Shown here: positions 13,020 to 16,447 of the stretch, piece after piece
How the letters are laid out: each line of letters begins with the position of its first letter
Numbering within the stretch: the stretch's first letter is position 1
Origin: an uncultured virus (IMG/VR IMGVR_UViG_3300009008_000008)
Taxonomy: Duplodnaviria > Heunggongvirae > Uroviricota > Caudoviricetes
Virus record (IMG/VR): IMGVR_UViG_3300009008_000008
Span: 62,001-126,000 of that record
Strand: one strand, 5' to 3'
Length of the DNA: 64,000 bases
Notes under the pieces: generated by a model
Database searches by the model: none
The model's input: the letters and a program-made list of their open reading frames with translations, nothing else
What the model was told of the DNA's origin: nothing
Program-made: the position numbers and the translations under genes

Positions 13020-13514
13020 CTAGTGCCCTATGTGCCTCATATATACCACTTTAATTCCCTCTTTCACCACTTGGTCCTGCGTTAACCCTAGACCCTTCGC
13101 TGATAGTTTTAACATACGATGGGTTGCAGCGTCAAGCGTTGTCATGTATTTCACGGGTCGGTGGTCGGAACCCTTTGATATTTCGTTCGCTTTGGAGATG
13201 ACAGAAGCCAGATAAACCGCTTGGTCTACCTGGCCGGAACCCTTCCATTTGGAACAGAGTTGGGTGATATACTGGGTACCATACTTGACATACTGGGGAA
13301 TGCGTATCTGGTGGGTGTTATAATGACAAATCCCGCACAGGGTTACAGTAGGACCGGTTTCCCCTCCGCAATGCCGAGGTACCACATGGTGTTCTTCCAA
13401 GCCATCTTTGTCTTGGCAAATCCAACAGTGGTCCAACTTCAATGTACGCTTAATTTCCAAACGTTGTGCCCTTGTTAATACTTTAACTTGATGGAGCCGT
13501 GCGGGTTTGCCCAT
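13020..13514 (-). CDS. HNH endonuclease with C-terminal ribbon-helix-helix-like domain
   Basis: CWIC...LEEHHVVPRHCGG...LCGICH, then KYMTTLDAATHRMLKLSAKGLGLTQDQVVKEGI. Start moved to 13514 because a sigma70 promoter lies at 13533-13561. Confidence 0.75.
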   Translation of the reverse strand: MGKPARLHQVKVLTRAQRLEIKRTLKLDHCWICQDKDGLEEHHVVPRHCGGETGPTVTLCGICHYNTHQIRIPQYVKYGTQYITQLCSKWKGSGQVDQAVYLASVISKANEISKGSDHRPVKYMTTLDAATHRMLKLSAKGLGLTQDQVVKEGIKVVYMRHIGH

Positions 13515-13532
13515 ACCCAACACTACGACACC

Positions 13533-13561
13533 ATTGTAACATATACCAACAGAAGAGTCAA
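13533..13561 (-). promoter_or_regulatory. Sigma70-type promoter
   Basis: TTGACT-17 nt-TACAAT. Confidence 0.7.
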
Positions 13562-13601
13562 GTAAAATTTCATGACTCGAAAAACCCAAGGATTTCAATG
13601 T

Positions 13602-13740
13602 CTTGCCATAGAAGAGCCCAGATGGAGGCAGGCAACGTTGGGCATGGACGTTAGGCGGCACTCGGAGACCGGGGAGATCACACTATACACCTGGGCCCTT
13701 CTATGGCAAGGCAGGCCCACCTACTTGGGACCCTGCCCTC
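13602..13740 (-). ncRNA. Candidate structured RNA: 23-bp stem enclosing small hairpins
   Basis: Arms 13602-13624 and 13688-13710 pair without a break on the minus strand (two G-U); lies just downstream of TGTAAATA at 13747. Confidence 0.5.
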
Positions 13741-13746
13741 ATGGTT

Positions 13747-13754
13747 TATTTACA
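13747..13754 (-). promoter_or_regulatory. TGTAAATA putative phage-specific promoter
   Basis: Exact intergenic motif copy. Confidence 0.6.
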
Positions 13755-13781
13755 AGAAATTATTATAAACTGAGCCAAAAA

Positions 13782-13869
13782 TGGAGCCAGGAACAGGATT
13801 CGAACCTGCGTTGGGTTTTCGCCGTCGGCTTACAAAGCCGCTCCTCTCGGCCGCTGGAGGGACCCTGGC
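13782..13869 (-). tRNA. tRNA-Thr(UGU) with a long variable region
   Basis: GCCAGGG/UCCUGGC acceptor, CCUC/GAGG D-stem, loop UUUGUAA, 15-nt variable region, GCAGG-UUCGAAU-CCUGU T-arm, U-CCA end. Confidence 0.75.
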
Positions 13870-13892
13870 AAATCAAGATTAGACTAGAGATA

Positions 13893-13966
13893 TGGACCTG
13901 CGTTTGGGTAGAACCAACAACCTAAGGCTTAACAGGCCCTCACTTTACCAACCAAACTACTGTGGA
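13893..13966 (-). pseudogene. Degenerate tRNA-Asn(GUU)
   Basis: Intact anticodon arm AGGGC-CUGUUAA-GCCUU and CCA end; the T-loop is aberrant and the acceptor stem does not pair. Confidence 0.65.
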
Positions 13967-13972
13967 TTAAGA

Positions 13973-14080
13973 TGGCACGTAGTAGGAATCGAACCTACGA
14001 TTCTCGCTTAAACGGTTGATCAGTCCGCTATCGGCGAGCACAGACTCTGCCTGCGCGTTTACCACTCCGCCATACGTGCC
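13973..14080 (-). ncRNA. tRNA-like RNA lacking an anticodon loop, with an extended variable arm
   Basis: GGCACGUA/UACGUGCC 8-bp terminal stem, Leu-type D arm, CAGGC-AGA-GUCUG, ~40-nt arm closed by CUCGC/GCGAG, canonical GUAGG-UUCGAUU-CCUAC T-arm. Confidence 0.75.
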
Positions 14081-14090
14081 ACAAAGAAAA

Positions 14091-14343
14091 TATGGTGTGC
14101 TATTACGCCAAAGAGGAGTTCACCCTTACCATCTCTGGGGTGGCTTACTACTTCACCAAGTGGCGCCCGTCGCCTATCCCTCATAGCAGGTGGTCCTGCA
14201 GAGCTCTTTATTTGGATGCCGCCACCCAAACGTTAGCCTAGAGGTTTCCCTGGTTCATGCCCTTGCAATCCAGGTACGTACTACAACTAACGGCCTTTGC
14301 CTCACTCTTTAAAGGATGGCTGCTTCTAAGCCAACCTCCCATA
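14091..14343 (-). ncRNA. ncRNA mimicking the 23S rRNA uL11-binding domain (H43/H44) with a ~190-nt structured insert
   Basis: GGAGGUUGGCUUAGAAGCAGCCAUCCUUUAAAGAGUG (14339-14303) and GCGUAAUAGC (14108-14099), closed by UAUGG/CCAUA. Confidence 0.85.
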
Positions 14344-14356
14344 CCTTATAGTATAT

Positions 14357-14728
14357 TCAATACCACGTTCGATGTTGTTCAAATACCCATTCACGACCAT
14401 CGTCAGCTTCACCGATACTCCACTTAATGTCCTCCGGAATCTCTATGACCTTCAGGTCAGGGGCCAAATCCTGGTGTTGGTTGAATGCTTCCAAGAGAGC
14501 AGGGTCATCACGCGGTATATCAAACACTGGGCAAAATCGTTCACCATCCTTGGTGTAGTTAAAGGATGCATGTGGTTCGTCTTCATGGGCCTGGTCTTTA
14601 TAAGATTGGACATACACTCCGTCCAGTTCCCACTGGAGATCAACACCAGTAGCCTGTGCCCAGGCCATCACAATTTTGTGTGGAAGGGAAAACCCACCGA
14701 TTTCTTTGTTAATGAGTATATGCCTCAC
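14357..14728 (-). CDS. Conserved phage hypothetical protein
   Basis: INKEIGGFSL...PRDDPALL...LKVIEIPED...EWVFEQHRTW pattern, common in phages. Confidence 0.7.
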   Translation of the reverse strand: MRHILINKEIGGFSLPHKIVMAWAQATGVDLQWELDGVYVQSYKDQAHEDEPHASFNYTKDGERFCPVFDIPRDDPALLEAFNQHQDLAPDLKVIEIPEDIKWSIGEADDGREWVFEQHRTWY

Positions 14729-14755
14729 GAGTAACTACCTTAAGTACTGGTTGAT

Positions 14756-14832
14756 TGGCTGGCCCTCCTGGATTCGAACCAGGGATACACAGAATCAAAA
14801 TCTGTTGCCTTACCAAACTTGGCTAAGGGCCA
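14756..14832 (-). tRNA. tRNA-Gln(UUG)
   Basis: UGGCCCU/AGGGCCA acceptor, ACAGA-UUUUGAU-UCUGU, CCUGG-UUCGAAU-CCAGG, G-CCA. Confidence 0.95.
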
Positions 14833-16359: not shown

Positions 16360-16447
16360 TGGTAGGGCTGGAGGGAGTTGAACCCACGGTAGGTCGCCCT
16401 ACGTCGGTTTTCAAGACCGGTACCTTTAACCACTCGGCCACCCTTCC
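16360..16447 (-). pseudogene. Chimeric tRNA-Ser(UGA) with a foreign 3' end
   Basis: Ser-type 5' body and variable arm, but 5' GGAAGGG cannot pair with 3' CAGCCCU-A-CCA. Confidence 0.7.

What the first reader, a model, noticed from the sequence alone, without database searches (positions are those of the whole stretch)
13973..14080. Anticodon-less tRNA mimic with 8-bp acceptor stem and oversized variable arm
Seen: perfect T-arm, Leu-like D-arm (GGCGGAGUGGUAAACGC) and 8-bp terminal stem followed by A. The anticodon stem CAGGC/GUCUG closes only 3 nt (AGA), and a ~40-nt arm follows (CUCGC/GCGAG enclosing GCGG/CCGU). All stems pair, unlike a decaying pseudogene. It starts 10 nt after the rRNA mimic. 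Established: bacterial LeuRS relies on A73 and tRNA shape rather than the anticodon. Inference: a non-decoding tRNA mimic (EF-Tu, synthetase or RelA ligand, aminoacyl donor or decoy), or an RNase P/Z processing signal that releases the rRNA mimic; it may be its functional partner.
Basis: partly seen in the sequence, partly recalled or inferred. Interest (0 to 1): 0.75.

Follow-up and report, generated by a model that had tools for sequence, protein, structure and literature searches.

The report
Anticodon-less tRNA-shaped gene in phage
A marine phage carries a well-folded gene with the body of a leucine-type tRNA but no usable anticodon; it most likely serves as a cutting signal that frees the neighbouring ribosomal-RNA look-alike, though a recently broken tRNA gene cannot be ruled out.

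Summary
On the minus strand (14080..13973) lies a 107-108 nt tRNA-shaped gene. It scores 43.7 bits on Rfam tRNA (E 5.5e-6). Acceptor, D and T arms are intact and G15:C48 is present. A 5-bp stem capped by AGA stands where the anticodon arm belongs, and a 36-nt two-tier arm where the variable arm belongs. It cannot decode, and I found no credible intron.

It is a class II, tRNA-Leu-like body, but it fails E. coli leucine identity rules: C73 in the normal register, and G15:C48 instead of A15:U48. G-1:C73 is histidine-like.

It sits directly 3' of a phage copy of the 23S rRNA uL11-binding centre. In 7 of 14 other loci with that copy, an ordinary tRNA of varying specificity starts within 35 nt. The link is therefore positional, not a specific partnership.

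The preserved parts are those RNase P and the 3' processing enzymes recognise, so my best reading (0.38) is a processing module that yields a stable tRNA-like by-product. A young pseudogene (0.30) and a trans-acting mimic (0.25) remain open.

The gene was found only in one near-clonal phage population. No RNA data exist, and there is no covariation for the insert. Three other anticodon-less tRNA-likes share its exact D-arm.

The parts
14073..14080 (-). 5' strand of the acceptor-type helix (GGCACGUA; first G = position -1 in the canonical 7-bp register)
   Evidence: Sequence; Rfam tRNA alignment; pair count across four look-alikes 8/8 pairs formed
14081..14082 (-). Leader bases G,U that can pair with trailer A,U (13973-13972), extending the helix to 10 bp
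   Evidence: Script read-out of pairs; such extension seen in 1 of 39 canonical tRNAs
14055..14072 (-). U8, G9 and class II type D-arm UGGCGGAGUGGUAAACGC (3-bp stem plus G13.A22, G18G19)
   Evidence: 24 of 27 bases of acceptor 5' strand plus D-arm identical to tRNA-Leu(GAG) of Streptomyces phage Beuffert
14041..14053 (-). Hairpin A in the anticodon-arm position: CAGGC-AGA-GUCUG (5 bp, 3-nt loop; a 6th G.U pair possible)
14003..14038 (-). Arm B in the variable-arm position: CUCGC / internal loop CGAUA-UUAA / GCGG-ACUGAUCAA-CCGU / GCGAG
   Evidence: Apex read as GCGGA-CUGAUCA-ACCGU looks like an anticodon stem-loop with GAU, C37 and an A.A closing mismatch. ARAGORN at an 80% threshold calls it tRNA-Ile(gat), among 94 mostly spurious calls
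13999..14002 (-). Linker AAUC; its C is position 48, partner of G15
   Evidence: Sequence; C48 present in all of E1-E5
13982..13998 (-). T-arm GUAGG-UUCGAUU-CCUAC
13974..13981 (-). 3' strand of the acceptor-type helix UACGUGCC (last C = position 73 in the canonical register)
13972..13973 (-). Trailer A,U; no encoded CCA
   Evidence: Sequence
14085..14347 (-). Upstream neighbour: phage copy of the 23S rRNA uL11-binding (GTPase-associated) centre with a roughly 190-nt insert; its 3' end abuts the element
   Evidence: blastn to 23S rRNA and to unannotated spots in Pseudomonas, Aeromonas, Xanthomonas and Cronobacter phages; Rfam LSU partial hits in relatives; motif positions; fold

Best explanation
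The element is a derivative of a class II, leucine-type tRNA gene that has lost the ability to read codons. It keeps everything the tRNA end-processing machinery recognises: the acceptor/T-arm stack, the D/T elbow and G15:C48.

It is transcribed with the phage's tRNA cluster on the minus strand. RNase P would cut at its 5' side. That cut sets the 3' end of the rRNA look-alike RNA, whose closing helix ends a few bases upstream. 3' trimming and CCA addition would then release a stable, L-shaped, roughly 105-nt by-product that the ribosome cannot use.

Shown: the anatomy, the position, and the habit of this rRNA look-alike of being bracketed by tRNAs in other phages.

Inferred: transcription, the cuts, and that selection on processing is what keeps the frame intact while the anticodon and variable regions changed.
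For: 1. Frame intact, decoding part absent: Rfam tRNA 43.7 bits with a 49-nt insertion in place of the anticodon arm. All 30 pairs are standard.

2. The deviations are confined to the two arms that RNase P does not need. That minihelix and anticodon-less substrates are cleaved is recalled knowledge, not from a call.

3. Position: the element begins 13 nt after the look-alike's conserved 3' motif. No terminator-like site lies between them on the minus strand.

4. In other loci with the look-alike, a tRNA starts within 35 nt of its end in 7 of 14: L004, L005, L006, L016, L017, L018, L024 (L018 and L024 are the same sequence). Their specificities are Met, Arg, Met, Val, His, Ser. In L016, L018, L019 and L024 a tRNA ends 16-19 nt before it. 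By my reading of the sequence printed, L022 is instead followed by a terminator-like hairpin.

5. Precedent: MALAT1's 3' end is made by RNase P at the tRNA-like mascRNA, and an extended acceptor stem through leader-trailer pairing is needed there (abstract of PMC8457004). The element also has leader-trailer pairing, 10 bp in all.

6. The neighbouring tRNA-Asn-like gene, which lacks an acceptor stem, has decayed (24.7 bits, T-stem mismatch). The element has no mismatch at all.
Against: - No RNA data: no RNA run holds the locus.
- No moderately diverged orthologue was available, so there is no test of selection. The three other copies are near-identical, and four DNA runs of one study show no variant in the element.
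- A pure processing signal does not explain why the central 56 nt form neat helices. That folding is only weakly above chance, however (z -1.70).
- Leader-trailer pairing and G-1:C73 could displace or hinder bacterial RNase P cleavage (recalled).
- In 7 of 14 other look-alike loci no tRNA is close by, so a downstream tRNA is common but not required.
- Four of the six tRNA-like genes in this phage are aberrant, which fits a decaying cluster.
Confidence: 0.38

Rival explanations
1. Young pseudogene. An ordinary class II tRNA gene in a decaying cluster was hit by one complex rearrangement or two indels: loss of 4 nt from the anticodon loop, and gain of about 22 nt in the variable loop, perhaps copied from another tRNA's anticodon arm. 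It has no function, and the intact stems simply reflect too little time.
For: - Only 2 of the 6 tRNA-like genes in the 128-kb record score like normal tRNAs (67.9 and 63.3 bits). The others score 43.7, 37.2, 33.7 and 24.7, and the Asn-like one has no acceptor stem.
- The element occurs only in one near-clonal population.
- Distant relatives carry normal tRNA arrays upstream of the same flanking gene and no long-insert tRNA-like.
- The insert's apex resembles an anticodon stem-loop, CUGAUCA against the usual tRNA-Ile CUGAUAA (recalled). That suggests a pasted piece.
- An HNH-nuclease-like ORF lies just downstream (weak hit).
- The central fold is not significant.
Against: - Zero mismatches in 30 pairs and intact tertiary positions, alongside two separate length changes.
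- The decayed neighbour shows what neglect looks like in this cluster.
- It sits exactly where other phages keep a working tRNA next to the look-alike RNA.
- Three unrelated viral or metagenome lineages carry similarly anticodon-less tRNA-likes with the same D-arm.
Confidence: 0.3
2. Trans-acting tRNA mimic. The processed, CCA-tailed RNA binds a host or phage tRNA-binding protein off the ribosome. Candidates are a synthetase (HisRS through G-1:C73 being the most concrete), a tRNA-targeting defence nuclease or toxin, RelA, or a modification enzyme. It would act as decoy, sink or cofactor, possibly together with the adjacent uL11-site look-alike.
For: - Intact L-shape determinants.
- G-1:C73 occurs in 0 of 39 canonical phage tRNAs examined. 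Irregular G-1 tRNAs were charged by E. coli HisRS yet not used in translation (section 16 of PMC5389517).
- Other anticodon-less tRNA-likes with the identical 18-nt D-arm exist. E2 is a stand-alone gene between what I read as terminator-like hairpins, in a complete 43.6-kb phage that otherwise has two tRNA hits, called tRNA-Met by ARAGORN. E3 is the only tRNA-like hit in a 42-kb phage record.
- In IMG/VR this D-arm with a T-loop never occurs at normal tRNA spacing: 0 hits at 25-55 nt.
Against: - No partner protein is encoded nearby.
- The central module of E1 is not significantly similar to E2-E4 (p 0.29, 0.87, 1.0), so membership in a family rests on the frame, which my search pattern selected.
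- There are no expression or charging data.
- E. coli leucine rules are not met.
Confidence: 0.25
3. Interrupted but functional tRNA. One or two short intervening sequences are removed to give a decoding tRNA, for example one using the GAU loop.
For: ARAGORN in intron mode returns a model, tRNA-Ala(agc) with an 18-nt intron at 32/33. Arm B's apex has a 7-nt loop with U33.
Against: - The ARAGORN model has a mismatched anticodon stem and a non-canonical intron site.
- No split of the 26-nt loop region gives a 7-nt loop with U33 (worked out by hand).
- The insert is far too short for a group I intron, and Rfam finds none.
- The phage's genes are of bacterial-virus type, and bacteria lack the archaeal splicing endonuclease (recalled).
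- C37 and A31.A39 would be abnormal.
Confidence: 0.05

Closest known systems
mascRNA at the 3' end of MALAT1 (and menRNA of NEAT1)
   Same: A non-decoding tRNA-like fold placed directly after another non-coding RNA. RNase P cleavage at it makes the upstream RNA's 3' end, and extended leader-trailer pairing of the acceptor stem matters (abstract of PMC8457004).
   Different: It is eukaryotic and nuclear, 58-61 nt with a reduced D region. Here the body is a full class II bacterial-type tRNA with two enlarged or altered arms, in a phage tRNA array. Cleavage is not shown here.
Irregular and allo-tRNA-like genes (Mukai et al. 2017, PMC5389517)
   Same: These are tRNA-shaped genes in clusters or on mobile DNA that carry long variable arms, G-1, and possible five-stem junctions. 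Some are charged but not used in translation, and the authors suggested they act as regulatory RNAs (abstract and section 16).
   Different: Allo-tRNAs keep a 12-bp acceptor/T branch (8/4 or 9/3) and a normal anticodon loop. This element has 8/5 (or 7/5 plus G-1:C73) and no anticodon loop.
Minimal E. coli tRNA-Leu lacking anticodon and variable arms (Larkin et al. 2002, as summarised in PMC9976931)
   Same: It shows that a class II tRNA body without an anticodon arm can still be a synthetase substrate (passages).
   Different: Those constructs need A73 and A15:U48. The element has C73 in that register and G15:C48.
tRNA genes flanking the phage uL11-site rRNA look-alike in other phages
   Same: Same slot, same orientation, 9-35 nt after the look-alike.
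   Different: Those are ordinary decoding tRNAs scoring 50-73 bits. This one lacks an anticodon.
tRNA-like/pre-miRNA units of murine gammaherpesvirus 68 (recalled, no call)
   Same: Viral tRNA-like folds that are processed by tRNA enzymes, are not aminoacylated, and serve to release an adjacent small RNA.
   Different: It is a eukaryotic virus with pol III units, and the released RNA lies downstream rather than upstream.

Membership tests
Elongator tRNA (Rfam RF00005) | Acceptor, D and T arms with conserved tertiary positions | tested here: met
   43.7 bits against cut-off 29; model positions 1-71 matched
Elongator tRNA (Rfam RF00005) | 5-bp anticodon stem closing a 7-nt loop with U33 and an anticodon, at the normal distance from the elbow | tested here: not met
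   The model aligns a 49-nt insertion instead. Default ARAGORN makes no call. The hairpin in that position has a 3-nt loop.
Bacterial tRNA-Leu (E. coli identity rules) | Discriminator A73 | tested here: not met
   C follows the 7-bp stem; A follows only an 8-bp reading. Rule taken from PMC9976931.
Bacterial tRNA-Leu (E. coli identity rules) | A15:U48 Levitt pair, G18G19, A20a | tested here: not met
   G15:C48. G18G19 and A20a are present.
Bacterial tRNA-Leu (E. coli identity rules) | Class II body with leucine-type D-arm and acceptor | tested here: met
   24 of 27 bases identical to the 5' part of phage Beuffert tRNA-Leu(GAG)
tRNA-His | G-1 paired with C73 | tested here: met
   Sequence; 0 of 39 control tRNAs have C73
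tRNA-His | GUG anticodon and class I body | tested here: not met
   No anticodon loop; long extra arm
Bacterial tRNA-Sec (8/5) | 8-bp acceptor plus 5-bp T stem | tested here: inconclusive
   The 8th pair can form, and does so in all four look-alikes. But 24 of 39 ordinary tRNAs can also form it.
Bacterial tRNA-Sec (8/5) | 6-bp D stem with 4-nt loop; UCA anticodon | tested here: not met
   3-bp D stem with 10-nt loop; no anticodon loop. The best clan member in Rfam is RF00005, not RF01852.
allo-tRNA (8/4, 9/3) | 12-bp acceptor/T branch with shortened T stem | tested here: not met
   The T stem has 5 standard pairs. Definition from the abstract of PMC5389517.
Intron-containing tRNA | Removal of an intervening sequence yields a canonical cloverleaf | tested here: not met
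   Only an implausible ARAGORN model. No group I intron or other ribozyme hit at E up to 1.
tmRNA tRNA-like domain / YrlA / other curated tRNA-like RNAs | Match to the Rfam family | tested here: not met
   On the minus (RNA) strand only RF00005 matches at E up to 1. On the opposite strand there is one sub-threshold hit, RF04354 Plastid-ycf2, 23 bits against cut-off 65.7, E 0.16.
RNase P-dependent 3'-end module (mascRNA-like, by function) | tRNA-like fold immediately downstream of a non-coding RNA | tested here: met
   13 nt after the look-alike's 3' motif
RNase P-dependent 3'-end module (mascRNA-like, by function) | RNase P cleavage at the fold creates the upstream RNA's 3' end | not testable with these tools
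   No RNA run holds the locus

The most novel reading that the evidence does not exclude
The element belongs to an undescribed class of phage non-decoding class II tRNA look-alikes (E1-E4). These share one D-arm, a canonical elbow and an extended terminal helix, but carry lineage-specific arms in place of the anticodon arm. They would be made, CCA-tailed and perhaps charged (here by HisRS through G-1:C73). They would act off the ribosome on a tRNA-binding host factor. In this phage that action would be joint with the adjacent uL11-site rRNA copy, for instance to trap or mis-trigger RelA or translation GTPases.
Probability: 0.12. Interest if true: 0.85.

Novelty: new variant of a known kind. 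Interest (0 to 1): 0.45.

Why it matters
If the element is maintained, it shows that phages keep tRNA bodies for something other than decoding. One possibility is as built-in cutting marks that shape neighbouring non-coding RNAs, a bacterial-virus counterpart of MALAT1/mascRNA. Another is as tRNA impostors aimed at host enzymes.

It also flags that standard tRNA finders either miss such genes or would label them pseudogenes. Non-coding cargo in phage tRNA arrays is therefore under-counted. If it is only a fresh pseudogene, it is ordinary.

Tried and rejected
1. Intron reading. ARAGORN with introns allowed gave tRNA-Ala(agc) with an 18-nt intron at 32/33 and a poor stem. Rejected.

2. Low-threshold ARAGORN called tRNA-Ile(gat) for part of the element, among 94 mostly spurious calls. 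Not used as evidence.

3. Antisense target. The longest exact match of the 56-nt insert, on either strand of the 128-kb record, was 11 nt, as expected by chance.

4. RNA evidence. No RNA holder was listed for 13560-14760. Four DNA runs of one study, two of them possibly the source, only re-confirm the sequence.

5. Orthologues.
- The flanking proteins found only the two near-identical contigs.
- A profile reached relatives of 26-32% identity. Those with tRNA arrays had normal tRNAs.
- A 62%-identical homologue (P0002) exists, but its contig is not in the phage collection and could not be fetched.

6. Motif CGGAC-N3-5-CAACCG, shared by E1 and E2. In the part of the table I could read, these were ordinary tRNAs or coding DNA, apart from E1 and E2 themselves. 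Local alignment of E1 and E2 inserts is not significant (p 0.29). The motif is dropped as evidence of homology.

7. The 8-bp stem as a special mark is weakened by the control.

8. blastn of the window region containing E1, of E1's 5' part, and of E2, E3 and E4 against 50,697 phage records found no homologue. Hits were only generic tRNA pieces and the Beuffert tRNA-Leu 5' part.

9. No tRNA-related enzyme was found among 49 window ORFs (Pfam) or 29 ORFs (PHROGs).

10. attP or integration-site reading: both tRNA halves are present and no integrase was seen. Rejected.

11. Literature. Searches (terms listed there) found no description of an anticodon-less class II tRNA-like next to an rRNA copy in phages. 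PMC10690425 mentions tRNA-like candidates only generically (passages); its supplements were not opened.

Full report
**Where it is.** The window is part of a 128-kb IMG/VR virus record from a large marine myovirus.
- PHROGs and Pfam find tail sheath, major head protein, T4-type topoisomerase II subunits, NAD-dependent ligase and QueC.
- The major head protein is 52-53% identical to those of Vibrio phages GR11A and GR7B.

The element lies on the minus strand. Its RNA runs from 14080 down to 13973.

**Checking the observation.**
- an 8-bp terminal helix (GGCACGUA/UACGUGCC) followed by A;
- U8 and G9;
- a class II D-arm (GGCGGAGUGGUAAACGC);
- a hairpin CAGGC-AGA-GUCUG;
- a 36-nt arm, CUCGC/GCGAG around GCGG-ACUGAUCAA-CCGU;
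- the linker AAUC;
- a perfect T-arm.

Rfam's tRNA model scores it 43.7 bits (cut-off 29; E 5.5e-6 for the window). It treats 49 nt as an insertion where the anticodon arm should be. Default ARAGORN does not call it. The whole RNA folds better than 199 of 200 shuffles (z -2.88). The central 56 nt on their own are only modestly better than shuffles (z -1.70, 16 of 200).

Two refinements apply.
- Leader and trailer bases lengthen the terminal helix to 10 bp.
- An eighth pair is not remarkable in itself. In 39 canonical phage tRNAs from my loci, 24 have a pairable -1:73. Only 1 also pairs -2:74, and none has C73.

**Can it decode or be spliced?**
- No 7-nt loop with U33 sits on a 5-bp stem at the normal place.
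- The apex of the long arm can be read as GCGGA-CUGAUCA-ACCGU, an anticodon-arm look-alike (GAU, C37, A.A closing pair). It stands on a second helix and an internal loop, far too long an arm for the ribosome.
- ARAGORN with introns allowed gives only an implausible tRNA-Ala model.
- Rfam finds no intron or ribozyme.
- No way of deleting one piece of the 26-nt loop region leaves a loop with U33.

I therefore treat it as non-decoding.

**Whose body is it?** The acceptor 5' strand plus D-arm match the tRNA-Leu(GAG) of Streptomyces phage Beuffert at 24 of 27 bases. So "Leu-like" is fair. But the E. coli leucine rules summarised in PMC9976931 (passages) require A73 and A15:U48, and A73 to C73 kills even minimal tRNA-Leu. 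In the canonical register the element has C73, and it has G15:C48. G-1:C73 is the hallmark of bacterial tRNA-His. Mukai et al. found irregular G-1 tRNAs that E. coli HisRS charges but the ribosome does not use (section 16 of PMC5389517). If any synthetase takes this RNA, HisRS is a better guess than LeuRS. Nothing here tests it.

**Surroundings.** All six tRNA-model matches of the 128-kb record lie in one minus-strand cluster. The 168.9-kb near-identical relative has the same six. Only tRNA-Ala and tRNA-Gln are normal (67.9 and 63.3 bits). The other four are:
- a Ser(UGA)-like gene with a defective acceptor stem (33.7 bits);
- the element (43.7 bits);
- an Asn(GUU)-like remnant without an acceptor stem (24.7 bits);
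- a Thr(UGU) gene with a long variable region and encoded CCA (37.2 bits).

Directly upstream of the element is a copy of the 23S rRNA uL11-binding centre interrupted by about 190 nt. It matches 23S rRNA and unannotated spots in several cultured phages.

**Is the rRNA copy its partner?** I fetched 13 IMG/VR loci with the copy's 5' motif, two of them the near-identical relatives, plus three cultured phages.
- The copy sits in tRNA arrays.
- A tRNA starts within 35 nt of its 3' end in 7 of 14 other loci. Their specificities are Met, Arg, Met, Val, His and Ser (L018 and L024 are the same sequence).
- By my reading of the printed sequence, one locus has a terminator-like hairpin there instead.
- In the rest I found no close tRNA.
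- In four loci a tRNA also ends 16-19 nt before the copy.

So the link is positional and generic: tRNAs bracket this RNA, as if tRNA-processing cuts define its ends. In the window no terminator-like site separates the copy from the element. The copy's predicted closing helix ends about 5 nt before the element.

**Relatives of the element.**
- Exact and near-exact searches found only two near-identical contigs.
- Four DNA runs of one marine study show no variant inside it.
- Distant phage relatives have normal tRNAs and no long-insert tRNA-like. These were found through a profile of the flanking gene, at 26-32% identity.
- A 62%-identical homologue of the flanking protein exists, but its contig could not be reached.

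There is therefore no covariation test for the insert.

**A possible wider class.** Searching for the exact D-arm and a T-loop gave the following.

| Collection | Spacing (nt) | Result |
|---|---|---|
| IMG/VR | 25-55 (normal tRNA) | 0 hits |
| IMG/VR | 46-72 | 5 loci of three types: E1 twice, E2 twice, E3 once |
| Metagenomes | 42-72 | E2 twice, and a fourth type E4 |
| Species genomes | 25-55 | one near-canonical Val-like tRNA, E5 |

E1 to E4 all lack a normal anticodon arm, all keep C48, and all can form at least 8 terminal pairs (10, 9, 8, 8). E2 is a stand-alone gene between what I read as terminator-like hairpins, in a complete 43.6-kb phage that otherwise has two tRNA hits, called tRNA-Met by ARAGORN. 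E3 is the only tRNA-model hit in a 42-kb phage record.

Caveats:
- The D-arm and T-loop identity were imposed by my pattern.
- Paired acceptor stems are trivial for any tRNA set.
- E1's insert is not significantly similar to the others (p 0.29, 0.87, 1.0). E2-E4 and E3-E4 share short stretches (p about 0.02).

E1's membership in a family with E2-E4 is thus only a lead.

**Weighing.** The parts that are intact are the parts RNase P and the 3'-end enzymes read: the acceptor/T stack, the elbow and the tertiary core. The parts that changed are the ones they ignore. The gene also sits in the slot where other phages keep a tRNA next to the rRNA copy. That makes a processing module the most economical reading (0.38). 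MALAT1/mascRNA is a clear precedent, including the need for leader-trailer pairing (abstract of PMC8457004).

Against it stand the lack of any RNA data, the possibility that strong leader-trailer pairing hinders bacterial RNase P, and the decaying look of the cluster. A young pseudogene (0.30) fits the single-population distribution and the decayed neighbours. It must, however, accept two length changes with no stem mismatch. A trans-acting mimic (0.25) is encouraged by G-1:C73 and by E2-E4, but it has no partner and no test. A spliced tRNA (0.05) is unlikely.

**Comparison with earlier notes of this scan (leads only).** Others recorded the uL11-site copy as a large phage RNA family in tRNA arrays (e1-6074430, e1-5998464). 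My searches agree on its distribution. One note places such a copy inside an insert splitting a tRNA-Leu gene (e1-5650520). Another describes a phage tRNA-Tyr look-alike whose anticodon loop is replaced by a hairpin (e1-6052854). I did not test either.

**Verdict.** It is a new variant of known kinds (tRNA-like non-decoding RNAs, tRNA-punctuated processing), seen so far in one phage population. Interest is moderate (0.45).

Noticed in passing
window 14085-14347 (minus strand): A phage copy of the 23S rRNA uL11-binding/GTPase-associated centre: 5' part GGUUGGCUUAGAAGCAGCCAUCCUUUAAAGAG, 3' part GGCGUAAUAGCACAC, split by about 190 nt. Homologous unannotated stretches occur in Pseudomonas phages Astolliot, UNO-G1W1, pf16 and Milchi, Aeromonas phage 4_4572, Xanthomonas XacN1 and Cronobacter GAP32, and in 11 further IMG/VR contigs, mostly inside tRNA arrays. 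Logan contigs break at its rRNA-identical stretch.
   Followed up: partly
window 13590-13745 (minus strand): A strongly folding RNA region just after the tRNA cluster. A stem of about 23 bp (CUUGCCAUAGAAGGGCCCAGGUG... / ...CAUCUGGGCUCUUCUAUGGCAAG) encloses about 60 nt (z -3.45, 0 of 200 shuffles). It has no Rfam match and could be an RNase III-type processing stem. The only variant seen in the DNA runs (C>A at 13717) lies in it.
   Followed up: partly
window 13902-13959 (minus strand): A tRNA-Asn(GUU)-like remnant: D, anticodon and T arms are recognisable (24.7 bits, below cut-off). There is no acceptor stem and the T stem has a mismatch. It is a decayed tRNA gene 13 nt after the element.
   Followed up: partly
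window 13782-13869 (minus strand): tRNA-Thr(UGU) with a 14-15-nt variable region, an unusual D-arm and an encoded CCA (37.2 bits; ARAGORN calls it). A class-II-like length is odd for a threonine tRNA.
   Followed up: no
window 16363-16444 (minus strand): A tRNA-Ser(UGA)-like gene. Its 5' acceptor strand lacks three bases relative to the model (33.7 bits; missed by ARAGORN). An alternative helix would use the encoded ACCA.
   Followed up: no
L009 289-1224 (plus strand): In the complete 43.6-kb phage carrying look-alike E2, the gene just upstream of the tRNA-Met / E2 / tRNA-Met block is a distant RlmN/Cfr-family radical SAM RNA methyltransferase homologue (TIGR00048 E 4.6e-32, far below its cut-off). 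RlmN enzymes methylate both 23S rRNA and tRNA (recalled).
   Followed up: partly
L013 1490-1608 (minus) and L161 297-412 (minus): Two further anticodon-less class II tRNA look-alikes, E3 and E4, carry the same D-arm as the element. E3 has a 12-bp arm with a 10-nt loop containing UCUAG, plus a 7-bp extra arm. It is the only tRNA-model hit in its 42-kb phage record.
   Followed up: partly
window 13020-13661 (minus strand): The ORF next to the cluster has weak HNH-nuclease-like matches (NCBIfam E 5.6e-5, below cut-off). A sigma-70-like promoter at 13561-13533 suggests the real start is later than 13661.
   Followed up: no
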